A DNA stretch of 64,000 nt, taken from IMG/VR virus record IMGVR_UViG_3300035181_002953; one strand, 5' to 3'. A program made the position numbers and the translations under genes. The DNA is from an uncultured virus (IMG/VR IMGVR_UViG_3300035181_002953). Lineage: Duplodnaviria > Heunggongvirae > Uroviricota > Caudoviricetes. The notes beneath the pieces were generated by a model that saw only the letters and a list, made by a program, of their open reading frames with translations, was not told the DNA's origin and ran no database searches. This document shows, piece by piece, positions 5,071 through 60,477 of the stretch; position 1 is the stretch's first letter, and every line of letters begins with the position of its first letter.

Positions 5071-5625
5071 ATGGTTCGTGGTGAGGGACGTGGCGAAAAG
5101 GCACTCGGTGACCATGTATGGCGTCACGTTCATCCACTTCGCGACCCACGACCAGCGTGTGTCCCCTGGAAAGAGCTTTGCGATGGCCAGAGCGAGGCCC
5201 TCGGTCGCGCCGTGTGGGCTCGCCTGAACATGCCCGGACTCATGCCCGAGGAAGTGCCGGGCGTCCTCAGGGAAGCCATCGCACGCAGGGACCGAGAGCA
5301 CGCCGCGTTCATGGGCCGATTCGACGGCGGGGCCCATTCTCCCGCGGCAAGATGCCTATCAACGGTCCTTGGTTGGTCTTTTTGGCTTCTGCGGCTCGTT
5401 GACCCGCTTTTATTGCCCACGAACCAGCTCGAGCGCCGCTGCGGAGGCCCCTAGGCTTCACACCAGGGCTTTCTACTACTCTTTCCGCTGCGTTTCGCCC
5501 TGTCTTTCTCACAGCGTTGCGTGCTACCGAGCAAGAATCCTCACGCTAGCGAAATCGCCAGCCCTCACACCACAAAGCGCCGAGAAACGAGATGTTCGGC
5601 GGCGCCGAAAGGACCCTCTCACGCC

Positions 5626-9997: not shown

Positions 9998-10732
9998 ATG
10001 GTGCAAGTGACGATTTCAGGGGCGGACGACAAGGTGAACCCGGATGACATGGTGGCGCTCGCGGCGGAGTTCCCGTTCGTCGAGTGGGGCATCCTGTTCT
10101 CGATGTCGCGGACGGGGACGCCGCGCTACCCATCGCAGCGGTGGATCGACGACGTCGCGATGCGCGGGCTGAAGCTCTCCGCCCACCTCTGCGGGCAGTA
10201 CGCCCGCGACCTCGGGCGTGGCGAGCTGACGGCGCCGATTCCACCGGGCTTCTCGCGGCTGCAGATCAATACTTACGACCCGGCGTGGTTCGAGACGATC
10301 AAGGCGCTGACGGCGGTGTCGCCGCTGTCGAAGCCAGGCGCGCCGAGCAGCGTCGGCGAGGGCCCGCTCCGGCGGTGGGAGATCATCCTGCCGGCGCGAA
10401 CCCTCTCGACCTGGGACACCGTCGGCTACCAGTCGACGCAGATCTACAACGGCCGCGTCCTGTTCGATCCGTCGGGCGGGCTCGGCTTGGCGCCGACGGA
10501 GTGGCCCCGGGCGCGCGCGGCGAATCGCGGCGCCGGCTACGCGGGCGGCATCACGCCGAAGACGTTCGGCAAGGTGGTCTCGATGGTGCTCGGTCCGCGC
10601 ATGAACACCGTGCCGGCCCACGTCTGGCTCGACATGGAATCGGGCGTCCGTGACGCGAACGACGCGCTCGACCTCGACCTGGTGCGCGAAGTGCTCAAGG
10701 TGGCAGCTCCCTACAACCGAGGGGCGTGGTGA
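9998..10732 (+). CDS. phosphoribosylanthranilate isomerase (TrpF)-like TIM-barrel protein, phage type
   Basis: VTISGAD..VEWGIL..PRYPS..AHLCG..LFDPSGGLG..GYAGGITP..WLDMESGVR. Confidence 0.7.
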   Translation: MVQVTISGADDKVNPDDMVALAAEFPFVEWGILFSMSRTGTPRYPSQRWIDDVAMRGLKLSAHLCGQYARDLGRGELTAPIPPGFSRLQINTYDPAWFETIKALTAVSPLSKPGAPSSVGEGPLRRWEIILPARTLSTWDTVGYQSTQIYNGRVLFDPSGGLGLAPTEWPRARAANRGAGYAGGITPKTFGKVVSMVLGPRMNTVPAHVWLDMESGVRDANDALDLDLVREVLKVAAPYNRGAW

Positions 10733-13700: not shown

Positions 13701-14456
13701 TCCGGGAGATCGTCGAGACGGAGGCGCTGCTTGCGCGGAAGCGCGAAGCGGACCCCATGGGCTGCCAGAAGAAGGACTGAGGAGACCAACCATGAACAGG
13801 TACCTGGTGACGCTCGACCACGGGGTGAACCGGTTGCCGAGGGTCGGGGAGGTGGTCGAGCTGAAACCGACCGACGAGTGACGCACGCAGCAACGGGGGT
13901 AGCAACGGGGAACAGGTAGCGGAAAGGGAACGAGGAACAAACGATGACGACGAAGGCGAAGGCGACGATTCCGGGGATGTGGTCCGACATGTTTGCGCAG
14001 CTCCCCTCGACGAGCGAGGCAGCGCGCGTCGCCGGTGGGCTCATTGCCGGACGGTCTGCGAAGCGGGTGCAGGAGCCGGCGACCTGGACGACGACGCGCG
14101 AGCGGACCGACCACCTGGGGTGCGTGCTCGAGATCTGGGAGCGCGCGAACAAGACGGCGACGAGCTGGCACTGGAAGACGAGGGGTGTGATCACGATCTC
14201 GGGCACCGCGGAGAGCGAGGAACGCGCCCGGTGGTTTGCCTACACGGCGGCGCGCATCATCGACGCGATGTCGAACCAAGCGCCGACCACCACCGACGGC
14301 GGCTCCAAGCGCTCGCGCATCGTGACGACGATCGGCGGCGACACGTTTCACAGTCACGGTCGCGGTCGCGGAGGTGCCAAACAGCGTCGCATGACCCAGA
14401 CGGAGCTCGACCTGACCCCGAAGCGCCCCGCGCGCACCGGTCGAGCCACCACCTAG
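10729..14456 (+). other. run of small hypothetical phage genes (about 10738-10950, 10947-11429, 11452-11717 frameshifted, 11714-12001, 12086-12304, 12301-12627, 12624-13221, 13218-13532, 13499-13780, 13944-14456)
   Basis: Co-oriented ORFs with overlapping start/stop codons and several Cys-pair motifs; no family recognised. Confidence 0.55.
12005..12030 (+). promoter_or_regulatory. GCTGAG-N16-CGTC motif
   Basis: Exact intergenic copy. Confidence 0.65.
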
Positions 14457-14520
14457 AAGAGGAGGAGGACACCCCGCACACGCCATAAGCAACGTATGTG
14501 CCAAGCATCCAAACAATCGC

Positions 14521-14548
14521 CTGTCCGATAATGCCGATTATCGGACAG
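14521..14548. other. putative tyrosine-recombinase core site (11-6-11): CTGTCCGATAA-TGCCGA-TTATCGGACAG
   Basis: Perfect 11-bp inverted arms around an asymmetric 6-bp spacer in non-coding DNA; Cre-like recombinase elsewhere in the window. Confidence 0.6.
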
Positions 14549-14571
14549 CGTAATATGGACCGGTCGGTAGG

Positions 14572-14785
14572 GTTACCGGGGGCTCGGCCCCTGGAAGCTG
14601 AGACCGGGGTATCGCGAGTGGCGGTCGCTCGGCCCCTCGAAGCCGAGACAGAATCCGCGCCACCTCACGCCGGCCTTCAAGGCCAGCCTTCACGCCAGCC
14701 TTTGCCAAAGCGCGCTCTTGGCACGCTTATCGCCGAGACCTGCATGTAAACACCAAGCGGGCGCTCGGCCCCTCGAAGCCGAGAC
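14572..14785 (+). CRISPR. degenerate mini-array A (four type V-like repeats ending at 14604, 14649, 14739, 14785)
   Basis: GCTCGGCCCCTGGAAGCTGAGAC, GCTCGGCCCCTCGAAGCCGAGAC, CTTGGCACGCTTATCGCCGAGAC, GCTCGGCCCCTCGAAGCCGAGAC; end-to-end spacing 45, 90 and 46 nt. Confidence 0.7.
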
Positions 14786-14810
14786 TGGGTCGATGGTTCC
14801 TCTGAAAACC

Positions 14811-14836
14811 GCTGAGGACCGGCCGGTAGAGCCGTC
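14811..14836 (+). promoter_or_regulatory. GCTGAG-N16-CGTC motif
   Basis: Exact; ATG 9 nt downstream. Confidence 0.65.
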
Positions 14837-14845
14837 GGAGGGGAC

Positions 14846-15253
14846 ATGGACACCGTGAGCAGCTCGAGCCAGGGGAACGTGAAGTGGACCGCTCGGATGA
14901 TTCGCCGCTCGCGCGGCGCCGTCCGGGGCGTTCTCGCCGAGATGCTCGGTGCCTGGTGCAACGAGCACCGTCAGGCGGACTTCATCGCCCAGCGCGAGAT
15001 CTTCCCCGTCGCGGGCCGAAAGGAGTCCGTGCGCTGGGTGGCGACGTGGGCGTTCTTCGGCCACGGCCCGAGCTGGGGCTGCTGGCCGGGCGATGCCGAG
15101 TATGCGGCGCTTCGGGAGCGGCTCGGCGGTCCTCCGCTCTCGCGGGCCGCGTCGATGGTCGACGAGGCGGCGCGGGAAGAAGGGCTCCGGAAGCGGCGCC
15201 TCGCGCGGACGAAGCGCCGGACCGTCGCGGCGCCTATCACGGTGGGCTGCTGA
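14846..15253 (+). CDS. hypothetical protein flanked by two identical CRISPR-like repeats
   Basis: ORF follows the promoter motif and SD GGAGG; repeats end at 14785 and 15285. Confidence 0.55.
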   Translation: MDTVSSSSQGNVKWTARMIRRSRGAVRGVLAEMLGAWCNEHRQADFIAQREIFPVAGRKESVRWVATWAFFGHGPSWGCWPGDAEYAALRERLGGPPLSRAASMVDEAAREEGLRKRRLARTKRRTVAAPITVGC

Positions 15254-15255
15254 GC

Positions 15256-15285
15256 AGCGGGCGCTCGGCCCCTCGAAGCCGAGAC
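15256..15285 (+). repeat. solo CRISPR-like repeat AGCGGGCGCTCGGCCCCTCGAAGCCGAGAC
   Basis: 30-nt identity with the repeat at 14756-14785. Confidence 0.8.
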
Positions 15286-15315
15286 GTCATCAGAACGATC
15301 GCACGGAGCGGGACC

Positions 15316-15825
15316 ATGGGAACCAAGACCACCTTGAAGGCTGCGCGGGCGAGCGTGTTCGAGCGCGTGATGGCGCTGCTCGCTCCCGCATTCTACCGGG
15401 AGATCGCGGCCGAGTACGGCGCGACCGTGATCGACCTTGGCGTGCTGGGCGAGGACGTCGCGATGCTGCTCGGGAAGAACCAGGGGCTTGCCATTCTTCC
15501 GCTCGGCCGCATCGTGCTCGGCGCACACGATAGCAAGGCAGAGCAGGACGCCACGTTCTTCCACGAGATGGGGCACGTGATCGACGTGCGGAGCGGAAAG
15601 GTCACGGGGCCGGCGTGGAGCGCGGCCGAGCACTATGCCAATGAGCTGTCCGCGTGGCGAACGGGACTTCGTCTCGCCCGGAAGAAGGGCATCACGTTCT
15701 CGAACGCCGCCCTCGCCAACTGCGACAAGCACCTGATGTCGTACGTACGCGGGCCGATGCTCGAGAAGAAGAAGCCCCGATCGGACATCCTGCGACGCGA
15801 GTTCGGGCGGAAGCGAAAGAAGTGA
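15316..15825 (+). CDS. HEXXH metallopeptidase-like (ImmA/IrrE-like) protein
   Basis: TFFHEMGH...ANELSAW. Confidence 0.6.
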   Translation: MGTKTTLKAARASVFERVMALLAPAFYREIAAEYGATVIDLGVLGEDVAMLLGKNQGLAILPLGRIVLGAHDSKAEQDATFFHEMGHVIDVRSGKVTGPAWSAAEHYANELSAWRTGLRLARKKGITFSNAALANCDKHLMSYVRGPMLEKKKPRSDILRREFGRKRKK

Positions 15826-15892
15826 GCGTGTGACTCGCTGAGGTGCTCCTCTGCGCCCCGCCGTCGGCGGAACACCACCAAGGAAAGGCATC

Positions 15893-16501
15893 ATGGCAAA
15901 CGACAACGATCGCTCCATCAACTTCGACAACCTGCTGATCCTCGAGCGCATGGCTGCGGATGCAAAGAACGCCTTCGATCGCCTTCACACGCACGTTCGA
16001 CAGACCGTTGACATGGAGCGCGCAGATCGCATGAAATCGTTGCTCGACGCGGCCGAGGCGGCGCGGGAGAGCGCTCGGGAGATCGAGAGCGGCCCTACCG
16101 TCTCGGCGCGCAGGGAGCCGGGGCGCTCGACCGCGGCGGACTTCTTTCCGCTGCGCAAGCTCACGCCGCGCGAGGCGGAACTCATCGGCAAGCGCGCAGG
16201 CGCAGACATCGATCCGGAGGGCATCCACTATGCTCTGCGCCAGCGCGTCGTAGAATCCGTATTTAAGCACCTCGGCCCCTACCCGTTGCCCTTCGACGAC
16301 CTCACCGAGCTGTCCAAGGCGACGTCGTCGCCGACGACGGACGAGAACCGGTCTGTGCGGCAACGTCTATGCGACGATGGCTATATCTTCGCCGTCGGCG
16401 GGACCACGCCCACGAGCTTCATTCTCAACCCGGTGGCCGTCGACCTGCTCGCGTTGCACGGGATAGGCCCCCTTGCCGCCGGCCGCCGATCGACGCGCTG
16501 A
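15893..16501 (+). CDS. hypothetical protein
   Basis: SD AAGG; preceded by a variant promoter motif at 15837-15865. Confidence 0.6.
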   Translation: MANDNDRSINFDNLLILERMAADAKNAFDRLHTHVRQTVDMERADRMKSLLDAAEAARESAREIESGPTVSARREPGRSTAADFFPLRKLTPREAELIGKRAGADIDPEGIHYALRQRVVESVFKHLGPYPLPFDDLTELSKATSSPTTDENRSVRQRLCDDGYIFAVGGTTPTSFILNPVAVDLLALHGIGPLAAGRRSTR

Positions 16502-16507
16502 TCGTCA

Positions 16508-16758
16508 TGCAGGCCAACCACGTCCCTCGTCGCGAGCGGCTGATCTCGAAGATCCGCAAGCTCGAGCACAGGCTCGAGGCAAGTCGCGAGAAGCCGTACG
16601 CGAACAATCCCTATTGGCGTTGCGTGGAGTGCGGAATCTACGACCCACAGCGCTCGGTCAACGAGGGTCGGCACCATCGCGGCTGTTCGATCGAAGGTCT
16701 CGACCGTCAGATCGTGCACTACCGGCGTCTCCTGTCCGAAGAGGAAGCTAAGTCATGA
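16508..16758 (+). CDS. hypothetical Zn-finger protein
   Basis: CVEC...HHRGC. Confidence 0.5.
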
Positions 16759-18869
16759 CTAGCGACAATGAGCTGACCAGGGTCGACGTCGTCGAGGGCA
16801 CTCGGGCCGATAACATCCACGGTGAAGAGATCGCGATCGGGTACTGGTATCGACGCATTCCCGAGTCGAAGGACGAGGGTACGTCCGACGACGAGGACCA
16901 GCTCGAAGAGCTTCACGTGCTGATGGCCAGCGACGACCAGGAAGACGAAGGCGCCAGCGCTGACGATCAGGATGATGACGACGACTCCGGCGAAGAGAGC
17001 CGACGCGACGACCATCCCGAGCTGCATTTGCATGGCGATGAGCAGCGTGCGGACCCGGACGATGGCTGGATCGGGTGCGTCGTCGAGGTCGGGTCAAACT
17101 ACATCCAGCTCAAGGCCGTCGACGACTCCTCGCTACGTGTCCACCTGGACAACGTCGACCAGCACCTCGTACGCATCCCCGACCCGGGGCGCCTCATCGA
17201 GCGCAAGACGGCGCTTCTGAAGTCGCAGATGGACGGGTACATGCGCGAGGTGGTGGCGCTGACGTCCAGGCTCGGCGTCGCCTCCGCCGGCGCGCTCACG
17301 ACCGGGTCGGAGGTCGCGGCGCTTGCGCTCCGCCCGTCGAGCGAACCCGTCGGCGACTACAAGGCGGCGCTCGAGCTCGCGCACAAGACGACGCTCCCGG
17401 ATCTCTTCTCCAAGATCGAGTCGACCGGCAAGCGGCTCTCGCTGTGGATGAAGGCGCCGATGTTGCCGATGCGCGCGCAGGCGGAGGCGATGAAATCGTC
17501 GCTCAAGAAGATCGAGTCGCGGATCTTCAACGTCGAGCTCTATGCGGGCCTCATCGAGCAGGTCGAGCGCATCGCGGACGGCGAGCCGGCCTCGCTCGAA
17601 GAGCCCATCCGCCTCTTCCAGCGGCGGGCGTACATGGACGAGGAGTGCCTCGCTCGGTACGAGGCCGGCGGAATGGACTTCGCCGGCATTCCCGCGTTCG
17701 ATCGGTGGCTCACGCGCCACGAGAACATCACCCGGCTGCTCCCGTTCCCCCGGTGCGCGCTCGCCTTCCAGGTTCGCCGCAAGGTGAAGGAACGAGAGAG
17801 GCCGAGTGATCTCGGCGGCTTCATCCGCATCCTCGCGGAGGAGAAGGCCGACATGCAGACGTTCCTCTACATGCGCAACGGCGAGCAGGTCTACCGGCTC
17901 GACACGGCGATCGACTTCGGCGAGAAGCTCTTCCCCGACCTCGACCACATCGACAAACTGGGCGGCGGCGCGTTGCTCTGGGCCGAGCATGGCTACATGC
18001 ACGGCACGCGCATCCTCACGGATGCCGAGTACCAGGGCCTTCTCGAGGAAGAGGCGCGCGAGCTGCGCAAGTGGAACGAGCTCCCGAAGAATCGGCGCAT
18101 CTTCCCGCCGCGCAAAGAGTCGACGCGCTTCAAGCGATTCGACAAGGATAACCTCTACTACGACGAAATCGCGCGCCACATCGCGTCCCAGATCGAGGCG
18201 CACAACCGGCTCGTCATCGTCCTCCAGGGCCTTCTCGACCGATCGCCCGTGTTCCACCCGCACCCGCCCTGGTCTCTCTGGTCCGAGAGCGGGATGAGGG
18301 CGCTCGATCTCATCTACGACGACTCGCGCGCGCTCGTTGGCGGTGCCGCCCCCGACTTCGAAGCCTACCGGGCGCGGCTCAACGCCTCGCTCAAGGTCGG
18401 CGACGTCACCGTCGGGCAAGAGCACGCGTGGATGCGCAGCGAGTCGAAGAAAGAGCTCCACCGTCTCCGGAATGGCCGCCACCGGTGGGGTTACGACCAG
18501 GAGCGGTTCCACCCGGAGCTCGTCCGTCCATGGCAGAGCCCTGGCCCTGGCCTCGTCGGGCGCGTCGTCGCCGTGTCGAAGCGGGCGAAGACGTGCAGCT
18601 TTGAATGGGAGCGGAAGCGCGAACGCCAGCAGTACGGGAAGCCGGAGATGATGACCGAGCGCCTGTCTCTCTCGATCGGGAAGATCCTCAACATCTCTGC
18701 CTACACGCCGGGCGACTTTCAGATCTTCTTCTCGGACCCGTGGACGCGCGCCAACTACCTCGAGTGGGCGCCGCTGCTGCTGGTTGCCGAGGAGTACCAC
18801 GCGGGCCAGCGCACCGTCGGCCTCCCCGGCGACGAGCGCGACCCGCTCCGGAAGAAGGACAACCGATGA
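16755..18869 (+). CDS. large hypothetical phage protein (704 aa) with acidic N-terminal insert and coiled coil
   Basis: Long GC3-biased ORF coupled to neighbours; no family recognised. Confidence 0.8.
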   Translation: MTSDNELTRVDVVEGTRADNIHGEEIAIGYWYRRIPESKDEGTSDDEDQLEELHVLMASDDQEDEGASADDQDDDDDSGEESRRDDHPELHLHGDEQRADPDDGWIGCVVEVGSNYIQLKAVDDSSLRVHLDNVDQHLVRIPDPGRLIERKTALLKSQMDGYMREVVALTSRLGVASAGALTTGSEVAALALRPSSEPVGDYKAALELAHKTTLPDLFSKIESTGKRLSLWMKAPMLPMRAQAEAMKSSLKKIESRIFNVELYAGLIEQVERIADGEPASLEEPIRLFQRRAYMDEECLARYEAGGMDFAGIPAFDRWLTRHENITRLLPFPRCALAFQVRRKVKERERPSDLGGFIRILAEEKADMQTFLYMRNGEQVYRLDTAIDFGEKLFPDLDHIDKLGGGALLWAEHGYMHGTRILTDAEYQGLLEEEARELRKWNELPKNRRIFPPRKESTRFKRFDKDNLYYDEIARHIASQIEAHNRLVIVLQGLLDRSPVFHPHPPWSLWSESGMRALDLIYDDSRALVGGAAPDFEAYRARLNASLKVGDVTVGQEHAWMRSESKKELHRLRNGRHRWGYDQERFHPELVRPWQSPGPGLVGRVVAVSKRAKTCSFEWERKRERQQYGKPEMMTERLSLSIGKILNISAYTPGDFQIFFSDPWTRANYLEWAPLLLVAEEYHAGQRTVGLPGDERDPLRKKDNR

Positions 18870-19492
18870 ACCCGCGCTCGATTCGAAAACGCCTCATGTG
18901 CCGACGCGTCGACTCCCTCTGGGGCCCGCGCGCGTGCCTCACGGTGCGAATCCCGCTGTCCGCGCTCCCCGAGCGCCCGCCGGCCATCCCGAAGACGCTG
19001 GGCAAGCAGGTCGACGGCGAGGCGAAGTTCCTGCGAACGGACGACCAGGGGCGTGCGGTCGTGACGACGGTCGACGAGGTCTTCGTCGTCGATGAGCCGG
19101 AGGGCATTGCGTTCCGTGAGGAGGAACACGGCTTCGCCTGGATCGAAATCGTCGAACGCACGTTCGAGGACTATGATGGTCCAAACGAGCAGATTGTCGC
19201 CGAGAAGCGCGGCGACCCCGAGATAGAGGCTTTGGTCTCGGCGCGTGAGGCCTGGTTCGATCGCTACCTGCGATGCTCTGGACAGGGCGTGCCGTTCCTC
19301 GACGCCTTCGTCCGTGCGCGCACCTTCGCCGCGGCCATGTACTCGACGGTCGACGACGATACCGGTTCGATCGTGCTCGACTACCGCGTCCAGTGGTACC
19401 GGCCGAGCTACAAGCGCAGGTTCTGCGCAGACCTCGCCGGCGCTATGGCACAGGCGAGGAAGGCGGGAGTGATCGCGCGCGTGAGTCGCTGA
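18866..19492 (+). CDS. hypothetical protein
   Basis: ATG overlaps upstream stop; ends in the TGA of a promoter motif. Confidence 0.65.
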   Translation: MNPRSIRKRLMCRRVDSLWGPRACLTVRIPLSALPERPPAIPKTLGKQVDGEAKFLRTDDQGRAVVTTVDEVFVVDEPEGIAFREEEHGFAWIEIVERTFEDYDGPNEQIVAEKRGDPEIEALVSAREAWFDRYLRCSGQGVPFLDAFVRARTFAAAMYSTVDDDTGSIVLDYRVQWYRPSYKRRFCADLAGAMAQARKAGVIARVSR

Positions 19493-19513
19493 GGCTCGCC
19501 GCCCCGACCCGTC
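19488..19513 (+). promoter_or_regulatory. GCTGAG-N16-CGTC motif heading the putative cas12m operon
   Basis: Exact; followed 7 nt later by a solo CRISPR-like repeat. Confidence 0.7.
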
Positions 19514-19520
19514 ACACAGG

Positions 19521-19550
19521 ATGTTGCAATCGCTCGGCATCGGCCGAGAC
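19521..19550 (+). repeat. solo CRISPR-like repeat ATGTTGCAATCGCTCGGCATCGGCCGAGAC
   Basis: Same CTCGGC/GCCGAG stem and GAC end; 5' GTTGCAAT is typical of CRISPR repeats. Confidence 0.7.
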
Positions 19551-19568
19551 AGAGAGGACTTGCCAGCC

Positions 19569-20195
19569 ATGGAAGAAGAAACGACGTACGTTGCGGCCGA
19601 GGACCACGTGGTGGGCGAGCGGCTTCTAGAGCTGCGGCGGCGCGTCTACAGCTGTATGCGCGACGAGCGCGCGCCCATGTCGCCGAACGTGGCGCTCGCG
19701 CTGATCGACCGGTGCACCGCCCTGATCAACGCGCTCGACAAGGCCGAGGAGCTGGGCGACCTCGTGTGCGAGGCCGCGCAGCTTGCATGGGCAGCGCAGG
19801 GCGATCAGGTCTCCGCGCAGGCATGGGAGAAGAGAGCCACGGAGATCCTGCAGCGCCTCGGCGAGCCGCTGAACTTGGCCGGAAAGATCCCGCAGAACAC
19901 TGCGCCGTCGATGGGGAAGGAATCGAAGACCATGAAGAAGATCATTGCAGGGGGTGTCATCGATTGCGTGGAGCTGACCCCGGACGGGCGGCTCGCGCAA
20001 GTCGAGATCGACTACTCGCGCTCGAACATCGACGATGGGTTCAGTGTCCGGCACGTGCTGATCGTCACCCCGGAGGCGGCCGATGAGCTGGCGTCGCGCT
20101 TTCGGAAGAAGGTCAAGATCACCATCGAGGAGGACGACTCCATCGATCCATGTGATTTCGTCGGCGACATTGCCGCCGAGGAGAGCGACTCGTGA
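19569..20195 (+). CDS. hypothetical protein co-transcribed with the Cas12-like gene (possibly two genes)
   Basis: SD GAGAGG; stop overlaps the GTG of the Cas12-like gene; possible second start MKKIIAGG near 19932. Confidence 0.6.
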   Translation: MEEETTYVAAEDHVVGERLLELRRRVYSCMRDERAPMSPNVALALIDRCTALINALDKAEELGDLVCEAAQLAWAAQGDQVSAQAWEKRATEILQRLGEPLNLAGKIPQNTAPSMGKESKTMKKIIAGGVIDCVELTPDGRLAQVEIDYSRSNIDDGFSVRHVLIVTPEAADELASRFRKKVKITIEEDDSIDPCDFVGDIAAEESDS

Positions 20196-22045
20196 ACCGC
20201 GTGTTCCGATATGGGCTCCTCTCGCCCGACGCCGAGAAGATCGACGCCATCGAGAGCCAGGCGACGCTACTCCACCGCTACCGCAACATGCTCATCCAGA
20301 TCGAGCGCGCGCGCCGCGCCGCGCTGCGTGAGCTCGAGGGCGGCGGCGGCGGCATTCCTGCCCTCCAGGCGGCTGCCGACGAGGCGAAGCGCTTCGAGGA
20401 CGACGCGGAGAAGGCCGTGAAGGCGGCCCGGAAGAAGACCAGGTCGCGCTCGGAGACCGAGGACGCGCGCGCCGTGCTCCGGGTGCTCCGCATCCGCCGG
20501 AGCAAGGCCGTCGGGGAGCTCAAGCAGGCGATGGCCCTCATCCGGCAGGACCCGGAGATCGCCGCGGCCCGCAAGGCCATCAACGAGCGGTCGGAGATCC
20601 TGCGCAAGGGCGCCCGCGGCGAGTCGGGCTGCTACTGGGGCAGCTACCTGCTCCAGGAAAACGCGATGGAGGCGAGCCAGAAGATGCCCCTCTACGACAA
20701 GACGATGCCGAACGACCCTCGGTTCAAGTCCGCGAGCAAGCGCGCGCAGTTCGGCGTGCTCATCCAGAACGGCATCACGGTGAAAGAGCTCTTCGCCGGC
20801 GCCAGCTCGAAGATTCGCATCGATGCCCCGTGCGAGGAGGCAGCGCATTCCGGGAAGCGACGCGACCGCCGGCACCACGCCGGCAAGATCCACCTGCGCA
20901 TTGCCTCCGACGACAACGCGAAGCCGGTGTGGGTCTCGTGGCCGATCATCATGCACCGGCCGATTCCCGAAGGTTCTCTGATCAAGAGCGCCGTCGTCAC
21001 GCGCTCGACCATCGGTCCGCGCACGCAGTGGTCTCTGGCCCTCAGCGTCGACGTCCCGGACGAGCTCGCGCGCGGCTGCGGCGAGGGCGCGGTGGCCATC
21101 GACATCGGCTGGCGCATCATCGGGAACGATCTGCGCGTCGCCACGTGGCGCGACCAGGAAGGCCACACGGGCGATCTCCGCCTCTCCGAGAAGGTCATCA
21201 AGCAGCTGCGGAAGCCCGAAGAGCTGCGCTCGACCCGGGACCAGAACTTCGACGCCGCCCGCGACAAGCTCGGCGCCTGGATCAAGGCGCAGCTCGAGCT
21301 CGGAGCCATCCCCGCCTGGCTACTCGACCGCGCCAAGAGCATCGCGCAGTGGCGCTCGCAGGACCGTCTCGCAGCCGTCGCGCTCTTCTGGAAGACGAAT
21401 CGCTTCGACGGCGACACGGATGCCTACGAGGCGCTCGAGGGCTGGCGCTACCACGACTGGCACCTGTGGAAGTGGGAGACCTCGCAGCGGATCAAGGCAC
21501 TTCGGCACCGCCGGGAGATCTACCGCATCTTCGCCGCCGACCTGTCGCGCCGGTACAGCACTCTCATCGTCGAGGACTTCGACCTCAGCAAGATGTCGAA
21601 GAAGCAACCGACGGAGGGAGTGGGCGAGAACCAGAATGCCAGGTCGAACCGGTTCCTCGCCGCGACGAGCGAGCTTCGCATCGTCCTGTCCGATGCGTTT
21701 CATGCGCGCGGCGGCGAGATGATCAAGGTCGGAGCGATGGCGACCACCATCGAGTGCCACGTCTGCCACCACGTCGAGACGTTCGACAAGGCTTCGTCCG
21801 TCGACCGGGCGGATCCGTGCCCGAAGTGCGGCGCCCAGTGGGATCAGGACGTCAACGCGGCGATCAACCTGCTCGCCCGCTGGGACGCGATCAAGGATAA
21901 GCCGCGCGCGGAGAAGAAGCCCCGCGAGTCGCGGTGGGCGAAGAAGAAGCGCACGAAGGCCGAGAAGTATGCGGCGGAGCTGCAGAAGCAAGCGGGAGCT
22001 CATCCCTCGGCGCCCGACGAGCACAGCGAACAGCCGTCCCCCTGA
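20192..22045 (+). CDS. cas12m: Cas12m-like (type V-M/V-U1) RNA-guided effector, TnpB superfamily, RuvC triad intact
   Basis: 617 aa. N-terminal VFRYGL..HRYRN and long coiled-coil REC; YWGSY; HRPIPEGSLIKSAVVTR; RuvC-I AIDIGWR (D304); WRSQDRLAAVALFWK; HRREIYRIFAADL; RuvC-II IVEDFDL (E461); Zn finger CHVC/CPKC; RuvC-III WDQDVNAA (D553). Collinear with Cas12m blocks recalled from memory; adjacent matching repeats. Confidence 0.82.
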   Translation: MNRVFRYGLLSPDAEKIDAIESQATLLHRYRNMLIQIERARRAALRELEGGGGGIPALQAAADEAKRFEDDAEKAVKAARKKTRSRSETEDARAVLRVLRIRRSKAVGELKQAMALIRQDPEIAAARKAINERSEILRKGARGESGCYWGSYLLQENAMEASQKMPLYDKTMPNDPRFKSASKRAQFGVLIQNGITVKELFAGASSKIRIDAPCEEAAHSGKRRDRRHHAGKIHLRIASDDNAKPVWVSWPIIMHRPIPEGSLIKSAVVTRSTIGPRTQWSLALSVDVPDELARGCGEGAVAIDIGWRIIGNDLRVATWRDQEGHTGDLRLSEKVIKQLRKPEELRSTRDQNFDAARDKLGAWIKAQLELGAIPAWLLDRAKSIAQWRSQDRLAAVALFWKTNRFDGDTDAYEALEGWRYHDWHLWKWETSQRIKALRHRREIYRIFAADLSRRYSTLIVEDFDLSKMSKKQPTEGVGENQNARSNRFLAATSELRIVLSDAFHARGGEMIKVGAMATTIECHVCHHVETFDKASSVDRADPCPKCGAQWDQDVNAAINLLARWDAIKDKPRAEKKPRESRWAKKKRTKAEKYAAELQKQAGAHPSAPDEHSEQPSP

Positions 22046-22246
22046 TCCGCGCTCGGCCGGCTCTCACCGAGACAAGCAGGACAATCGCTCACACGCGCTC
22101 GGCCGCCCTTCTGCCGAGACACCAAGAGCACGGACCTATCCTCTCACCATACGAGCACCCTATGAACGAACGCCACTCGACCATCATGATGCAGACGCGA
22201 AACGGCCTGGAAGTTCCGTGTCTCGGCCGAGCTTCGGGCCAAGGAC
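22044..22246 (+). CRISPR. degenerate mini-array directly downstream of cas12m (repeats ending at 22073, 22120 and a divergent copy at 22246)
   Basis: GCGCTCGGCCGGCTCTCACCGAGAC; GCGCTCGGCCGCCCTTCTGCCGAGAC; GTTCCGTGTCTCGGCCGAGCTTCGGGCCAAGGAC. Confidence 0.65.
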
Positions 22247-22252
22247 GGCCCC

Positions 22253-22480
22253 GTGTTCGACGTGGAGCATGGGATCCCCATGGCGCGCACGACGTTCCTG
22301 AGATGGGACGTGTTCACCGAGGACTACCGGCACCTCCTCGTCGCCTCGGGCCCGGTACCGGACAAGCCCAGCGCCATCCGCATCGACATCACGCAGACCA
22401 CGATCACGGAGGACATGGATGTCGTGAGAACGGTTCCCGTGACGCACGGGATCATCCGCTTTTTCGTGTATGAGTTCTAG
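22253..22480 (+). CDS. small hypothetical protein embedded between repeats
   Basis: 75-aa ORF; the next repeat begins at its stop codon. Confidence 0.5.
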   Translation: MFDVEHGIPMARTTFLRWDVFTEDYRHLLVASGPVPDKPSAIRIDITQTTITEDMDVVRTVPVTHGIIRFFVYEF

Positions 22481-22675
22481 TTCCGCGCTCGGCCGGCTCC
22501 GCTGCCGAGACCACATCGAACGTGCCCGCTCGGCGGCCTCACGGCCGAGACTCATGGTCAGCGTTCCGACGAGATTCGATTCCTGATCCGCACAACCACC
22601 GCTCGGCGTATCTCTAGAGCCGAGACCTCAGCGCGCTTCACCCGCAATGCCAGCTCGATGGTTTCTCGTCGAGAC
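22480..22675 (+). CRISPR. degenerate mini-array (repeats ending at 22511, 22551, 22626, 22675)
   Basis: GCTCGGC-CGGCTCCGCT-GCCGAGAC; GCTCGGC-GGCCTCACG-GCCGAGAC; GCTCGGC-GTATCTCTAGA-GCCGAGAC; GCTCGAT-GGTTTCTC-GTCGAGAC (compensatory stem). Confidence 0.7.
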
Positions 22676-22694
22676 CTAACCGAAGGATGGACCC

Positions 22695-22961
22695 ATGTCG
22701 CAACGCGAACTGCTCACGATCCTTCGCAAGCTGACGCCGGGGCAGCGAGCCGTGCTCATGGCCGCCGGGCAGATGGACCACCCGGGCGTCGTCCAGGGCG
22801 ACATGGATGCAGCTCGGAAGCTCGCGAAGGCGGGGCTCGTGGCGCTCGATCCCAGCGGGCCTACTGGCGACGGCCGCTGGAAGGTCGACCTCACCGATCT
22901 AGGCCGAGAAGCGGCGGCGCTAGCGACCGAAGCAGTTCGTGTTCTCCCCCGCAAGCGCTGA
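22695..22961 (+). CDS. winged-helix-like small protein
   Basis: LTPGQRAVL...ARKLAKAGLV...WKVDLTDLGREAA. Confidence 0.6.
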   Translation: MSQRELLTILRKLTPGQRAVLMAAGQMDHPGVVQGDMDAARKLAKAGLVALDPSGPTGDGRWKVDLTDLGREAAALATEAVRVLPRKR

Positions 22962-24788
22962 GTTCCGCGGGGCGCGTCCGTCCTGCCCCCATGTCCACCA
23001 CGAAGACGAAAGAGCAGCTCGAGCTCGAGCTGAAAGAAGCGATCCGCCTCATCGGGTGCCTGGTCGAAGACCATTGCTCGTACCTCAGCCTCCGCAACGG
23101 GCGGTGGGTCAACGGCGTCTACAAACACGAGTCGTGCCGGGAGGCAATGACCCGGATGCGGGCGTGCCGCACCCCGGCTGCTACAACTGCGAGGCTCGCG
23201 AGTTCCTCGCCAAGCACCGCTGAGGCTGGCGCGGGCGTCTCGTCCCGAGGGCATGAAGATCATCGCCCGCATCTCCTCCACCTGCCGCTGCTGCAAAGGC
23301 CACATCCGCGCCGGGCAGGTCATCGACTGGGAGCGCGGCATCGGCTCCACCCACGCGCAGTGCCCGCCGGTCCTCGAGACGGTGCCCCTTCTGCCGAAGG
23401 AGATGGCACGCGCCGCCTTTCAGCTGATCGAGGGCATCGCCACCATGGCCGACCGTCGCCGGAGGCCACGATGACGCCGACCGTTCTGGATGCGTTCCGC
23501 TGGTACACGATTCTCGAGATCCTCAAGATCGACCCGAACCTCATCACCGATGCGCGCCGCGTGTGCGGCGGCGAATACGGCCTGAACCTCGGCAACAGCC
23601 TGCGCCTGCATGGCAAGCCCGTTCGCATCGACCTATTCTCCCACTGATTCACTCTCACCCGCCCCGTCAGGACAGCATGACCACCACCGACACCACCGCG
23701 ATCTGGCCGCCCATCACGTACAGCGGCTTCGAAGGCCGCGCCGCCCGCAAGAGCATCGGCGAGAAGGCGGTCGTCATTCTCGACCCCGAGGACCGCTCGT
23801 GCTCGGCCTACACCTTCATCGGGTCCGGCGTACCGGCCAAGGTGTGGCACCACCGGGCCGTGACGATTGCCCTCGTCGCGGAGGCCTCGCTCGAGGCCGT
23901 CGAGTCAGCCCTCCGTGGCGGCGAGAGCACCATCGAGGCCCTCTTTGCCCTCTACGCCGGCAAGGACTGGGACGGCTCGAACCACGTCGGCACGTGGAAC
24001 GACCCCGACGACACCCGCTTCGTGCTGCTCGAAAAGCTCGAGAGCGAGCTGGGCGAGGTGCCGACCTACTGGGACGCGTCGGACTACTTCGCGCCCGTCG
24101 TGGTCGAGATCGCTGGCGACGTCGCCGCGCTGGTCCGTACCGGCGTCCGCCCGGAAGAGGCCGTCGAGCTCATCGCCAAGAAAGAAGTCGACTCGGCCGA
24201 GGACGTCATCCTCGAACTGGGCGACGTCGAAGACACCATCCGCGAGCTGTACATCCACGCGGTCGAGAAGGTCATCCTGGCCGCCGACATCTCGACCGTC
24301 GAGATCACGAAGCGCGACCTCGACTCGATCCTGGTGTGGATCGACGGCCAGCCGGCCCTCGCCGAGGTCGCCATCGCGGCGCTGTGCCTCGACCAGGACG
24401 CCACGAACGACGGTGCCGCCGCCTACTTCGAGTACGACAGCGAGACCGACGCGTCGGACTGTCCGGCGAGCGCTCAGGCGCCGGCGTGAGGGGCTGCCTC
24501 GACTGCGGGGGCACCGACGAGGCCCCGCCCCGGCACACAACGGACTGCCCCCAGCTCGAGCGCGTAGCCGAGGGGCCGCTCGGGCGCGGGTGCCGCTTCT
24601 GCGGCGCCACGGGCCTCGCCACCGGGCCGGCATTCGACCCCGATGGCAGCGAGGCCTGCGGGTTCTGCGGCGCCGTCCCGGGGCAGGCCTATGCGACCCG
24701 CCCCAGGTTCAACCGCGGCGCGGCAGCGATTCCAGGCTTCCGAGTGAAGCCGCGCGCGGGCCGCTGAGCTTCCACGAGAGGCGCCGTC
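22957..24788 (+). promoter_or_regulatory. cluster of four promoter motifs (22957-22982, 23219-23244, 23643-23668 CTGAT variant, 24763-24788), each exactly 8 nt before an ATG
   Basis: ATGs at 22991, 23253, 23677 and 24797. Confidence 0.7.
23677..24489 (+). CDS. acidic hypothetical phage protein
   Basis: Follows promoter motif; WDGSNHVGTW motif; GC3-biased. Confidence 0.7.
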   Translation: MTTTDTTAIWPPITYSGFEGRAARKSIGEKAVVILDPEDRSCSAYTFIGSGVPAKVWHHRAVTIALVAEASLEAVESALRGGESTIEALFALYAGKDWDGSNHVGTWNDPDDTRFVLLEKLESELGEVPTYWDASDYFAPVVVEIAGDVAALVRTGVRPEEAVELIAKKEVDSAEDVILELGDVEDTIRELYIHAVEKVILAADISTVEITKRDLDSILVWIDGQPALAEVAIAALCLDQDATNDGAAAYFEYDSETDASDCPASAQAPA

Positions 24789-28000: not shown

Positions 28001-28759
28001 CCCGTACCGCATGGCGGAATCCCACCGGTGCCCGACGTGCGGGCACGACTCGAGTGAGCTCGCCCCGGTCGTCGTGCCGGTGCCGCCGCCGGCGACGTCG
28101 AAGCGCGTGCCGCCGAAGCCGCCGCCGACGCCCGCGCCGGGCCCCGGCCGCGAGGTGACGTACTTCGAGGCGATTGAGGGGCTCGGGCGGATTCGGCGCG
28201 GGGAGCCATGGTTTCCTTTGCCGCCGACGCCGGGACCCGGTTCACGTCGGGAGGGTGGCTGATGGACGCCCTGGTCGCCATCGTCGCGAGCCTCTCGGTC
28301 GCGTCGCTCATCGCGTGCGTGATGTCTGCGCGGACGGTGTCCAAGCAGGCATTCCAGCAACGGAAGATGCTCAACGAGCTGCAGGACTCGAACCTCGCGC
28401 TCCGCCAAGAGCTCGACGTGATCCTTGCGACGCGGGGGCGGCGTCAGCTGAAGCAGATGTACGCCGCATACCTGATCAACAGCCCCTACCGCACCGCCGA
28501 CGCGCCGCCGCACTGCCACGATTGCGGGCGCCCGCACGAAGAGACGGATCTCGACGGACGAATCGAGCGCGGTGCCGTTCTGGAGCATGTTGGCTATCTC
28601 GCTGCCGGCGAGCGCGCGGCGCTCGAGCGCATCGGCTACCTGGTAGGCGATGCGTCCTATCGAGCCTACCGCCGACGATCCGAGCCGCGTGACGTCGAGG
28701 ACGCGATCGATCCCGCGGACGACGACGAGGGCGGCGATGACATCGGACGCCTTGCATGA
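25063..28759 (+). other. run of small hypothetical genes (25063-25719 Cys-rich, 25716-26114, 26140-26439, 26439-26870, 26867-27130, 27120-27371, 27395-27583, 27580-27861, 27849-28262, 28262-28759)
   Basis: Coupled co-oriented ORFs, several with TM segments; promoter motif variant at 26110-26135. Confidence 0.55.
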
Positions 28760-45624: not shown

Positions 45625-45633
45625 GTCCAGTCG

Positions 45634-58316: not shown

Positions 58317-60477
58317 CTATCGCGCGACGCGGTGGAAGATCTCCGGCATCGACGGTGCCGCGGGGGCGCGCGCTGCCGGCGGCTTGACGCCGCTCCCCGG
58401 CACCTCGACGCAGTCGTACGATCGGTCGCCGCAGAACAGCGCCTTGGCGCCCCTGCGCTTCTGGATCGCCATGATCACCATGCGGTTCAGGCGGGGTTTC
58501 TTCGGAAGACGAACCGTCTCGACCAGGCCGCTCTTGGTCCAGCGGACCTTCCCTCGCCGCTTCGCGACTTCGTAGAGCTCGGCGTGCGTCATCACGGCGT
58601 TGCCTCGGGCGCGGCGGACGCGACGGCGGGCGGGTGAAACGGACAGGCCTGCCCGGAGCGCGCGCGGAGCTCGCACACCTTGCACGGACCGTCGTCGAGC
58701 TTCCAGTGCTCGGAGACCTTCAGGACCTCGATCTCGGCCTTCTGCAGCGCATCGTCGACGAGACGCGAGAAGACGCGGATGGCCGGGTCCTTGTTCTCGC
58801 GCTCGATCGCCTTCTTCATGCCGAACGATCGGAGAACGCGGCGGGTGTCCGTCATCGACGGCCGCTTCTCCTTTTTCAGCCCGAGCACGCGGCTCATCGT
58901 GAGGCGCCAGTGCTTCTGACCATCCTCCTCGACGATCGACGAGATGACCCACACGATCCCGTCGCTCCACACGCTGCCCGACCGCGTCGTCCCCTCGAAC
59001 AGGTCCGGCAGGCGCTTCCACGTGTCCTCTCCCTCGCCCGGCGATGCCACCGGCTTCAGCTCGGACAGCTTTTTCAGCACCGCCGGAAGCCGGTCCCATT
59101 CCTCTTTCGTCGTCGCGCGCATCACTCTCTCCCCTCGCGTTCGTACCACTCGTCCCGGATCGCGGTGAACTTGCGAACCTCGCCCCGGTAGATAACCCAG
59201 ATGTTCCAGCCCACGCCAGCGATCCACGCGCCGGCCGCGATGACCAGGGTCGCAATCACCGGCGACGGCCAGATCGCCACGCCAACCGTCATGACCGAAA
59301 TGCCCATCGCTACGAAGGACATGCCCGTCGTCGTATTGTCCCGGCACCGGCCGAGCGCGGCCCGAACGTCGCTGATGGTCTGCCCGCGCATGGCGAGGCG
59401 CTCCGGCTCGAGGGGCGTCGGCTGCTCGCCGAGCCGACGGCGTCGATCCAGGCTCGTCGTGCCGAGCAGGGAACCGAGCCTCACGACGCCGCCCTGTTGC
59501 AGGTGGCGATCTTCTCCTGCAGGTCCTTCACGAGATCGGCGGCCGTCTCGGCCGAGAGCACCGAGATCGACGGCTCCCGCTTCCCGTGCGGATCGACCGA
59601 CACGATCATGATGAACTTTCGGCCGTGGGCGTCCCACCCGATGTCCGTGCGCAAGAGCGCGCACTCGTCGGTGCTCATGACCATATTTCCGTCGCCCGTC
59701 GGCCTCATGACTCACCCATTCTACGACGAGCCTCGGCCGTCGCCTTCGCCCGCGTGATGCCGAGGCATCCGCGGAAGTAGTCGCACTCTTCCTCGGTCCA
59801 CTTGTACCGCCGGCGCGCCTCGACGACGAATCGGGCCGCGTCGTCAGCCTCGTCGGGCGTAGGGGGCGGCGGGCGCGGGATGTCCTCGTCGTCGAAGCCC
59901 GAGCTGTCCCGAGTCGAAGGTGAGATGTCTCGGGACGGAGGCACCCGAGCAGGCATCGAAGCAACGACGGACGTGTCTCGCGAATCAGGCACGCGAGCGG
60001 GCGTTTCAGCGGTCTCTTCCTCCCCCTTTTCGATGGGGCAGCCACGGCAGTGCCCCCGCTCGTCGAAGTTGTCGCAGCTCGGGAAGGCGTCGAATCCCTG
60101 CGCCCGCGCCTCGGCGCACATCCCCCGGAACTCGGCGACGCCGATGATGCGACCGTTGCGGCGAATGCCGGGGAGGACGTGCCGGCGGAGGTACGAGTCG
60201 TCGTGGCGGTCCACGTCGACCGCCATGCACATGTGGATCGTGTACGGAGGCTCGGGCGGCGGAACTACTGCAGAACGTCCAGGCGCCACGTCCAGACCAG
60301 CATCAGCATCCCCGGCTTGTACGGCACCGCCGCTGTTCCGATGAGCTCCCACCTGTCGGGATCGGGCACGTCGTCGGGGCGGATCGGGTTGTCCGGCACC
60401 ATCGTCACGCCCACCGCGTCCGAGTCCCGACGCGACGTCACGAACCCGATCGTCGTCCGGTACTCGCTCAGACTCAT
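58317..60477 (-). other. small hypothetical genes (58317-58592, 58592-59122, 59122-59391, 59481-59708, 59705-60268, 60265-60477)
   Basis: Coupled co-oriented ORFs; boundaries approximate. Confidence 0.5.

What the first reader, a model, noticed from the sequence alone, without database searches (positions are those of the whole stretch)
14572..22675. About 13 dispersed repeats conserving structure rather than sequence, with short spacers
Seen: copies end at 14604, 14649, 14739, 14785, 15285, 19550, 22073, 22120, 22246, 22511, 22551, 22626 and 22675, all on the + strand. The stem CTCGGC/GCCGAG and the 3' AC are largely kept, with pairing-preserving changes (CTTGGC/GCCGAG, CTCGGC/GCTGAG, CTCGAT/GTCGAG). 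Loops vary in length (4-11 nt) and sequence, and the 5' parts differ. Adjacent units are mostly 40-49 nt apart, leaving only about 10-20 nt of spacer. Inference: standard CRISPR finders would probably miss this. The array looks maintained by selection on crRNA fold, not by Cas1-2 duplication. Short guides suit DNA binding and transcriptional control of host or competitor genes more than cleavage.
Basis: partly seen in the sequence, partly recalled or inferred. Interest (0 to 1): 0.85.

Follow-up and report, generated by a model that had tools for sequence, protein, structure and literature searches.

The report
Scattered Cas12m guide-RNA handles in phage
A phage-like element that carries a Cas12m gene has a dozen copies of that protein's guide-RNA hairpin scattered between neighbouring genes instead of in a regular CRISPR array, which hints that a virus uses a CRISPR protein for regulation or RNA processing.

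Summary
Twelve same-strand hairpins of the form G, CTCGGC, loop, GCCGAG, AC lie between 14575 and 22675. A 13th, ending at 22246, is degenerate. The exact pattern occurs 8 times against 0.12 expected. ORF 20192-22045 is a Cas12m (type V-M) homolog (PDB 23vw, E 1.5e-78). The hairpins match the published Cas12m2 crRNA handle position by position. They also keep a covarying second helix between nt -27..-25 and the first three loop bases. A covariance model built from them finds ordinary V-M CRISPR arrays beside Cas12m homologs in other loci. All 12 units lie in gaps between same-strand genes, and cas12m itself sits between two of them. The region therefore reads as a broken-up array with genes in spacer positions. 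A complete 86-kb phage (G001) and contig L108 show similar degenerate units. No RNA data were available and no targets were found, so what the units do remains inference. I favour Cas12m binding and cutting the operon transcript at each handle. This is a new variant of a known kind.

The parts
14575..14604 (+). unit 1: handle-like hairpin, stem CTCGGC/GCTGAG (one G-U pair), 8-nt loop, ends AC
   Evidence: model R1 26.8 bits. A stronger alternative hairpin is predicted.
14620..14649 (+). unit 2: stem CTCGGC/GCCGAG, 8-nt loop
   Evidence: 34.2 bits
14709..14739 (+). unit 3: stem CTTGGC/GCCGAG (G-U pair), 9-nt loop. It has T instead of G before the stem, and its upstream-loop helix is shifted by one base.
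   Evidence: 29.9 bits
14756..14785 (+). unit 4: identical over exactly 30 nt to unit 5
   Evidence: 36.5 bits
15256..15285 (+). unit 5: the only unit in the gap between ORF 14846-15253 and ORF 15316-15825
   Evidence: 36.5 bits
19525..19550 (+). unit 6: 4-nt loop, no second helix possible. It ends 18 nt before the ATG at 19569.
   Evidence: (23.8 bits)
20192..22045 (+). cas12m homolog, 617 aa, RuvC motif residues D304, E461, D553. H255/R256 align to the handle-reading H269/R270 of Cas12m2.
22044..22073 (+). unit 7: begins at the cas12m stop codon; the closing pair is a C-A mismatch
   Evidence: 30.4 bits
22090..22120 (+). unit 8: 9-nt loop
   Evidence: 34.9 bits
22218..22246 (+). degenerate 13th copy: C-A mismatch, ends GGAC, 6 nt before the GTG at 22253
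   Evidence: not found by model R1 on the + strand
22480..22511 (+). unit 9: starts at the stop codon of ORF 22253-22480; 10-nt loop
   Evidence: 30.8 bits
22521..22551 (+). unit 10: 9-nt loop
   Evidence: 35.8 bits
22594..22626 (+). unit 11: 11-nt loop
   Evidence: 26.7 bits
22646..22675 (+). unit 12: stem CTCGAT/GTCGAG. It ends 19 nt before the ATG at 22695.
   Evidence: (27.5 bits)
59927..60005 (-). two unit-like hairpins 48 nt apart (stems CTCGCG/CGCGAG and CTCGGG/CCCGAG) that lie inside an ORF; membership doubtful

Best explanation
The repeats are copies of the crRNA handle of the Cas12m encoded at 20192-22045. In other words, they form a broken-up, degenerate type V-M CRISPR array. Its repeat units sit on the sense strand in the gaps of one gene block, so that genes, cas12m included, occupy spacer positions. 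The shown steps are the homology of the protein, the match of the units to the handle, their kinship with true V-M repeats, their selection for structure, and their placement between genes. The inferred steps are as follows. The block is transcribed through the units. Cas12m binds each handle and cuts just 5' of it, as it does on pre-crRNA. The tandem units (period 40-49 nt) then release crRNA-sized RNAs with 12-26 nt of guide. The last unit of each gap leaves the downstream mRNA with a Cas12m-bound 5' handle. I expect the role to be regulatory rather than adaptive immunity. It could be control of these transcripts in cis, silencing of outside targets by short guides, or both. My odds: the units are Cas12m handles, about 0.85; Cas12m binds and cuts them in the transcript, about 0.6; the main role is in cis, about 0.4, against in trans by short guides, about 0.35.
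For: Protein. The ORF matches solved Cas12m structures (23vw_A E 1.5e-78 over residues 7-562; Cas12m2 8hio 5e-19). It matches PADLOC Cas12u1 over its full length at 1.9e-101. H255/R256 align with Cas12m2 H269/R270. In Cas12m2 these residues read C(-1) and stack on the G(-23):A(-2) pair (PMC10442227, passages). Handle. That paper describes G(-23):A(-2), a 6-bp helix from -22..-17 to -8..-3, 8 nt between the arms, and C(-1). The units have G, a 6-bp stem, a loop (8 nt in 6 of the 12) and AC, with A and C invariant. The stem is paired in 98.7% of cells. A second helix (-27..-25 with loop bases 1-3) is paired in 78.9% of cells. Its covariation score is 0.692 against 0.211 +/- 0.088 in shuffles (0 of 500 reach it) and at most 0.274 when slid. 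The same helix in the same register is 86.8% paired in 65 distinct repeats from 30 other loci that hold no window sequence: 28 Cas12m loci, plus L154 and L163 from the pattern scan. Kinship. Model R1 finds periodic arrays just downstream of Cas12m homologs, for example L005 (4 repeats), L007 (11) and L064 (10). The L005 repeat has the same stem and nearly the same loop as window units 2, 4 and 5. Boundaries. Units 4 and 5 are identical over exactly 30 nt, and the identity stops at C(-1). Placement. All 12 units lie in 5 of the 6 gaps longer than 25 nt between + strand ORFs from 13.9 to 23 kb. Units 5, 7 and 9 have their -27 position 2-6 nt after a stop codon; unit 6 lies 31 nt after one. Linkage. 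The next best window hit of R1 scores 15.8 bits, against at least 23.8 bits for the units. Of 80 viral stretches holding a tandem match, only the 5 with 20 or more units carry cas12m. Those 5 stretches come from 3 contigs. None of the other 75 carries it. Recurrence. The complete 86,334-bp phage G001 has 38 model hits, and their strand follows the local gene direction. Seven hits lie directly upstream of its cas12m. In L108 a regular array grades into degenerate units.
Against: There is no RNA evidence at all, because no RNA run was listed. No target was found for any guide. Folding energies are unremarkable, with z from -0.3 to -3.2. For 2 of 8 folded units the predicted minimum-energy fold is not the handle hairpin. 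Unit 6, and most G001 units, have loops too short for the second helix, so they are not full handles. G001 linkers of 6-14 nt cannot serve as 17-nt guides. In L108 the units lie on the strand opposite to the cas12m match. I chose the register of the second helix by eye, knowing the published geometry. R1 was trained on 14 rows that include the two doubtful ORF-embedded copies, and its E-values are rough. About 14 kb of the source contig lie outside the window and could hold a regular array.
Confidence: 0.6

Rival explanations
1. One reading: the units are a working guide array. Its short spacers direct Cas12m to DNA targets in the host or in competing elements, where binding blocks transcription. 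The placement of units between genes is incidental.
For: Tandem units leave 12-22 nt between C(-1) and the next unit's -27 position. Cas12m2 forms only a 17-bp heteroduplex (PMC10442227). The 40-49 nt period is close to the roughly 50-nt crRNA (about 30 nt of it repeat-derived) reported for GoCas12m and below the 50-60 nt reported for Cas12m crRNAs (PMC11013384, passages). Repeat identity stops exactly at C(-1). L003 and L004 carry one standalone repeat with a shared guide start. L154 has three short-spaced units upstream of cas12m.
Against: Guide prefixes match the window no more often than shuffles: 0 ten-mers against 2.2 expected. No listed match in 401 genomes, or in 3.1 Mb of fetched loci, starts at guide position 1 with 17 nt. 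No shared PAM was seen. Five of the 12 units are the last before a gene, so their 'guide' is that gene's 5' leader. In G001 the linkers are 6-14 nt, and neighbouring linkers resemble each other.
Confidence: 0.35
2. Relic: the remains of an old regular array that was broken up by gene insertions and is decaying, with no present function.
For: Repeat sequences have diverged (mean column identity 68%). One copy is degenerate (22246). Spacing is irregular. L108 shows a regular array grading into degenerate units.
Against: Decay would destroy pairing. Here stems are 98.7% paired. Both helices show changes on both sides that keep pairing (5 of 9 pairs; 0 of 500 shuffles reach the observed score). 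G(-23), A(-2) and C(-1) are kept. All units keep one strand and avoid coding sequence.
Confidence: 0.1
3. The hairpins are independent of Cas12m. They would be intergenic RNA elements of the phage, such as terminators, RNase sites or stabilisers, or sites for another protein, and only resemble V-M repeats.
For: They lie between genes on the sense strand, often right after stop codons. Many G001 copies are plain short-loop hairpins.
Against: No T-run follows the units. None of the 4 terminator-like sites in 13800-23200 coincides with a unit. The conserved flanking G and AC are the bases that Cas12m2 reads. Loop sequence is shared with a true V-M repeat. Dense clusters were found only beside cas12m.
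Confidence: 0.1
4. Decoys: repeat mimics, in the manner of RNA anti-CRISPRs, that soak up a Cas12m of the host or of a rival element.
For: Solitary repeat units on viral genomes inhibit CRISPR systems, including type V-A (PMC10651486, abstract and passages). Tandem handle-only arrays such as those in G001 would suit titration.
Against: Described solitary repeat units are not associated with cas genes. Here the element carries its own matching cas12m, and one unit starts at its stop codon. The host and its CRISPR content are unknown.
Confidence: 0.1

Closest known systems
Type V-M (V-U1) CRISPR-Cas12m systems (Wu et al. 2022, recalled and seen only in reference lists; Omura et al. 2023, PMC10442227; Bigelyte et al. 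2024, PMC11013384)
   Same: The effector is homologous. The handle geometry is the same: a G:A pair, a 6-bp helix, AC at the 3' end and a second helix with the loop. There is no tracrRNA-like partner to explain. No adaptation genes were found.
   Different: Known loci, and most relatives fetched here, have a contiguous array of near-identical 36-nt repeats with a 72-76 nt period. Here the units differ in sequence and loop length, are 40 to 4265 nt apart, and are interleaved with genes, cas12m among them.
Myxophage MV-1 Cas12m locus (bioRxiv 10.64898/2026.09.14.751636; abstract and passages)
   Same: A phage-borne Cas12m of similar size (610 aa against 617 aa) with an intact D-E-D motif, no adaptation genes, and no protospacers found.
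   Different: MV-1 is described with one consensus repeat and eight spacers, as found by a standard CRISPR typing tool. I could not see its sequence or supplements, so I cannot say whether it is related to this element or has scattered units too.
Standalone repeat-like elements and mini-arrays in cas loci (crRNA-like regulators; Shmakov et al. 2023, bioRxiv 10.1101/2023.03.03.530964; passages)
   Same: Repeat-like units lie outside a regular array and next to a cas gene. They are thought to act by partial complementarity without cleavage.
   Different: Those elements are one or two units per locus beside a normal array, with a target in the same locus. Here there are 12-13 units, no normal array in the window, and no local target.
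Solitary repeat units / RNA anti-CRISPRs of phages (PMC10651486)
   Same: Repeat mimics carried on a viral genome.
   Different: Those units occur without cas genes and mimic the host's repeats. Here the matching cas gene lies on the same element.

Membership tests
Type V-M CRISPR-Cas (Cas12m) system | Effector homologous to Cas12m over its full length | tested here: met
   23vw_A E 1.5e-78 over residues 7-562; PADLOC Cas12u1 1.9e-101 over residues 3-565; Pfam Cas12f1-like TNB domain
Type V-M CRISPR-Cas (Cas12m) system | crRNA handle: G(-23):A(-2), a 6-bp helix, C(-1) next to the guide | tested here: met
   A and C are invariant, G is kept in 13 of 14 rows, and the stem is 98.7% paired. Geometry is as described in PMC10442227.
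Type V-M CRISPR-Cas (Cas12m) system | Second helix between the 5' part of the repeat and the hairpin loop (pseudoknot-type fold) | tested here: met
   78.9% paired in the window units and 86.8% in 65 distinct repeats of other loci, in the same register. It is absent in unit 6. The papers' figures that list the pairs were not available.
Type V-M CRISPR-Cas (Cas12m) system | RNA-guided DNA binding without cleavage; self-processing of pre-crRNA | not testable with these tools
   Only the motif residues D304, E461 and D553 and the H255/R256 pair can be read.
Canonical CRISPR array | Contiguous, near-identical direct repeats at a regular period with spacers of similar length | tested here: not met
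   Mean column identity is 68%. Intervals range from 40 to 4265 nt, with genes in between. The tandem-repeat finder reports no such array.
Canonical CRISPR array | Adaptation genes (cas1, cas2, cas4) nearby | tested here: not met
   None among the 63 ORFs scanned against PADLOC. V-M loci often lack them.
crRNA-like regulators of cas loci (mini-arrays) | Guide partly complementary to a site in the same locus | tested here: not met
   0 ten-mer prefix matches in the window against 2.2 expected
Solitary repeat units / RNA anti-CRISPRs | Repeat mimic on a virus without an associated cas gene, matching the host's system | tested here: not met
   cas12m lies among the units. The host is unknown, so the match to a host system could not be tested.
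Intrinsic terminators | G+C-rich hairpin followed by a T-run | tested here: not met
   None of the 4 terminator-like sites in 13800-23200 coincides with a unit. The sequences after AC are not T-rich.

The most novel reading that the evidence does not exclude
Some phages have turned Cas12m and its handle hairpin into an operon-level RNA system. Handles placed between cistrons are bound and cut by Cas12m, so the CRISPR protein processes and controls the phage's own polycistronic mRNAs, its own message included. The same loci would then show how repeat arrays can grow and spread by copying a handle hairpin, without Cas1-Cas2.
Probability: 0.3. Interest if true: 0.85.

Novelty: new variant of a known kind. 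Interest (0 to 1): 0.68.

Why it matters
Cas12m is known as a DNA-binding silencer guided from ordinary arrays on plasmids. Its first report on a phage is a 2026 preprint, and that report also shows an ordinary array. This locus, together with phage G001 and contig L108, shows handle hairpins kept by structure alone, placed between genes, with cas12m itself in a spacer position. If Cas12m acts on these transcripts, that would be a natural case of a class 2 effector working on its carrier's own mRNAs. It would also be a system that standard CRISPR finders miss. It bears as well on how arrays arise and are maintained without an adaptation module. If instead the units only give short guides, they define a minimal natural guide format of about 27-30 nt of handle plus 12-22 nt of guide.

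Tried and rejected
Self-targets. Guide prefixes were searched against the window and against G001. The window gave 10 nine-mers against 8.6 expected and 0 ten-mers against 2.2 expected. G001 gave 32 ten-mers against 13.8 +/- 5.4 (maximum 33), mostly G+C-rich words with no common upstream motif.

Host targets. The two unit-rich gaps were searched as DNA against the two Polyangiaceae-titled MAGs that hold L003 and L004, and against 401 genomes of the same class. Only short matches were found, with per-genome E of 1.4e-5 or worse. Such matches occurred in 135 and 216 of the 401 genomes, and many lie on the units themselves. None of the listed matches starts at a guide's first base with 17 nt. The lists were cut (14 and 154 matches not shown).

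Window guides against 232 fetched loci (3.1 Mb). Exact matches reached 13-14 nt at most. One 17-nt match runs into the next unit's stem.

Spacers of related arrays against the window. For 389 spacers the best exact match is 16 nt and does not start at the first guide base.

L003 and L004. No local match was found for their shared guide start.

Expression. No RNA holder was listed. Contigs of 4 DNA runs are nearly identical, with one difference at 14616, so they give no comparative signal.

Other searches that found nothing. No whole genome is held for the window. There was no megablast hit in the phage collection. Rfam found only tRNAs. The promoter scan found none. Flanking genes have no homologs in the other Cas12m loci, except ORF 10650-11429 in L119 and L121. 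The search for relatives of the phage through protein 43059-44444 and its 71%-identical relative found no viral contig, so the test 'relatives without cas12m lack the units' could not be run.

Hairpin 13695-13719 passes a loose regex but not model R1, so I dropped it.

Full report
**What is there.** Between 14575 and 22675 the + strand carries twelve short hairpin units. Each has a G, a 6-bp stem (mostly CTCGGC/GCCGAG), a loop of 4-11 nt, and the dinucleotide AC. The strict pattern occurs 8 times, all on the + strand and all in this stretch, against 0.12 expected from shuffles. The variants keep pairing: two G-U changes and one double change to CTCGAT/GTCGAG. Only 5 of the 12 successive intervals are 40-49 nt. 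The rest run from 75 to 4265 nt. A tandem-repeat finder reports no array here.

**The neighbouring gene.** ORF 20192-22045 (617 aa) is a Cas12m homolog.
- It matches solved Cas12m structures: 23vw_A at E 1.5e-78 over almost its whole length, and Cas12m2 at 5e-19.
- It matches the PADLOC Cas12u1 model at 1.9e-101. Type V-U1 is the older name of V-M (PMC11013384).
- It contains the TNB zinc-finger domain.
- In alignments with 34 and 9 relatives, D304 is nearly invariant and E461 and D553 are invariant.
- No cas1, cas2 or cas4 was found among the 63 ORFs scanned.
- The window looks like a phage or prophage. It has a full-length match to phrog_29287, virion-protein and integrase matches, an SLT-domain protein with a weak endolysin match, and four tRNA genes.

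**The units are Cas12m handles.** The structure paper on Cas12m2 (PMC10442227, passages read) describes the repeat-derived handle as follows.
- G(-23) pairs with A(-2).
- C(-22)..C(-17) pair with G(-8)..G(-3).
- Eight bases lie between the arms.
- C(-1) abuts the guide.
- A(-24) is flipped out.
- A further stem stacks on this helix.
- H269/R270 read C(-1) and stack on the G:A pair.

The window units fit this position by position.
- A and C are invariant, and the G is kept in 13 of 14 aligned rows.
- Stems are 98.7% paired.
- H255/R256 of the window protein align with H269/R270.
- The '5' parts that differ' are not free. Bases -27..-25 pair with the first three loop bases, for example GGG:CCC, GCG:CGC, CCG:CGG and GCC:GGC. 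This helix is paired in 78.9% of cells. Its covariation score is 0.692, against 0.211 +/- 0.088 in shuffles (0 of 500 as high) and at most 0.274 when the partner is slid.

I picked that register by eye with the published geometry in mind, so I tested it on independent data. In 65 distinct repeats from 30 other loci, the same columns are 86.8% paired, with changes on both sides at all three pairs. Of these loci, 28 were fetched through their Cas12m homolog and 2 (L154, L163) came from the pattern scan. Energy-based folding alone is unimpressive. The z-scores run from -0.3 to -3.2, and 2 of the 8 folded units prefer another nested fold. The case therefore rests on covariation.

**Kinship with true CRISPR repeats.** A covariance model built from the units (R1) separates them cleanly inside the window: at least 23.8 bits for the units, against 15.8 bits for the next hit. 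In loci fetched through the protein, it finds periodic arrays just downstream of Cas12m homologs. Examples are L005 (4 repeats), L007 (11), L064 (10), L129, L131 and L144, with a 70-76 nt period. The L005 repeat has the same stem as window units 2, 4 and 5, and its loop differs by one extra base. Units 4 and 5 of the window are identical over exactly 30 nt, and the identity stops at C(-1). This is how a repeat-spacer junction behaves.

**Anatomy.** All 12 units lie in gaps between + strand ORFs.
- Four lie before ORF 14846.
- One lies before ORF 15316.
- One lies before ORF 19569.
- Two, plus the degenerate copy, lie after the cas12m stop and before ORF 22253.
- Four lie before ORF 22695.

Five of the six gaps longer than 25 nt between 13.9 and 23 kb hold units. 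For units 5, 7 and 9 the -27 position falls 2-6 nt after the upstream stop codon; unit 6 lies 31 nt after one. The region therefore reads as one long, degenerate array in which some 'spacers' are 12-62 nt and others are whole genes, cas12m included. Two more unit-like hairpins on the - strand (59927-60005) lie inside an ORF with strong coding signal on both sides. They encode a short protein repeat, and their compensatory stem change is made of two synonymous changes. I leave their membership open. They were part of the training set of R1.

**Linkage and recurrence.** I scanned the viral collection for a unit followed within 5-35 nt by the start of another, which gave 80 stretches. Only the 5 stretches with 20 or more units have a Cas12m homolog in their flanks, and those 5 come from 3 contigs. 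None of the other 75 stretches (1-4 units each) does. Two of the three contigs hold regular arrays (L163, L154). L154 also has three short-spaced units upstream of cas12m.

The third contig is G001, a complete 86,334-bp phage with terminal repeats. It has 38 model hits, clustered mostly between 22.6 and 35.6 kb around its cas12m.
- Stems covary widely behind a fixed G-CTC...GAG-AC frame.
- Loops are mostly 3-9 nt.
- Linkers are as short as 6-14 nt.
- Seven units lie directly upstream of cas12m.
- The strand of the units follows the local gene direction in both gene blocks.

L108 shows a regular array that grades into degenerate, short-spaced units, with further small clusters. There the units lie on the strand opposite to the cas12m match. 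The Polyangiaceae-titled MAG loci L003 and L004 have a single standalone repeat with a shared guide start.

**How it most likely works.** The shown steps are the identity of the protein, the fit of the units to the handle, their descent from V-M repeats, their selection for structure, and their placement in sense-strand gaps.

The inferred steps are as follows.
- The block is transcribed through the units.
- Cas12m cuts its pre-crRNA within the repeat, upstream of the handle. It would bind each handle here and cut just 5' of it.
- Tandem units would then give RNAs of 40-49 nt. This is close to the roughly 50-nt crRNA reported for GoCas12m and a little below the 50-60 nt reported for Cas12m crRNAs. 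The guide portions of 12-26 nt are close to the 17-bp heteroduplex that Cas12m2 uses.
- The last unit of each gap would leave the downstream mRNA with a protein-bound handle 6-61 nt before its start codon.

I favour a regulatory role over immunity. I cannot decide between action in cis on these mRNAs and silencing of outside targets by short guides, and both may hold. The cis view is favoured by the single units before genes, the packing after stop codons, and the G001 linkers, which are too short for guides. The guide view is favoured by the spacer lengths and the sharp repeat boundary.

**What argues against it, and what is missing.**
- No RNA run was listed.
- Four DNA runs hold nearly identical sequence.
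- No target was found in the window, in G001, in 3.1 Mb of fetched loci, or in 401 genomes. The host is unknown, so this weighs little.
- About 14 kb of the source contig lie outside the window.
- I could not find relatives of the phage that lack cas12m.

**Comparison with what is known.** Cas12m systems, their handles and their DNA-binding mode are known. A 2026 preprint reports a phage-borne Cas12m with a regular eight-spacer array and calls it the first on a phage. Standalone repeat-like units and mini-arrays in cas loci, and solitary repeat units on phages, are also known.

My three literature searches and the passages read did not turn up a description of V-M handles scattered between genes, kept by structure alone, with cas12m in a spacer position. 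The searched library is limited, and figures and some supplements were not visible. I rate this a new variant of a known kind.

Noticed in passing
window 45633-46044 (-): Cluster of four tRNA genes (Leu-CAG, Leu-GAG, Tyr-GTA, Leu-CAA) inside the - strand gene block.
   Followed up: no
window 14521-14548: Perfect 12-bp palindrome with a 4-nt loop in the relatively A+T-rich stretch about 35 nt upstream of the first unit. The scan lists it as terminator-like on the - strand. It could be an operator or the end of a leftward transcript.
   Followed up: no
window 14665-14702: A 12-nt unit repeated about three times inside the 62-nt 'spacer' between units 2 and 3.
   Followed up: no
window 59705-60232 (-): An ORF whose low-complexity linker holds a 16-codon tandem repeat. 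At the RNA level the repeat forms two handle-like hairpins, and the stems differ by two synonymous changes that keep pairing.
   Followed up: partly
window 22695-22961 (+): An 88-aa ORF preceded by four units. The Atlas model of this exact protein resembles MarR-type winged-helix regulators (TM 0.65-0.71 by query, under the tool's bar). This is a lead only.
   Followed up: partly
window 15316-15825 (+): A 169-aa ORF with an HEMGH (HExxH-type) motif in its translation. It has no family match.
   Followed up: no
window 5455-6624 (+): A 389-aa protein with two Cpn10/GroES-like stretches.
   Followed up: no
L003:11871-11901 and L004:2258-2288: Two Polyangiaceae-titled MAGs have a single standalone V-M repeat after cas12m. 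The first nine guide bases are shared, and the stems differ by one base. No local target was found.
   Followed up: partly
L154 (reverse view 10001-10136 and 11714-13210): A viral contig with three short-spaced units upstream of cas12m and, downstream, regular arrays built from two repeat variants.
   Followed up: no
window 13695-13719 (+): A hairpin that passes a loose regex (two G-U pairs, 11-nt loop, G before the stem, AC after it) but is not found by the covariance model. Probably chance.
   Followed up: partly
window 28741-29838 (+): Weak matches to SMC-like defence proteins (LmuB 2.8e-6, JetC), most likely a shared coiled-coil or ATPase region.
   Followed up: no
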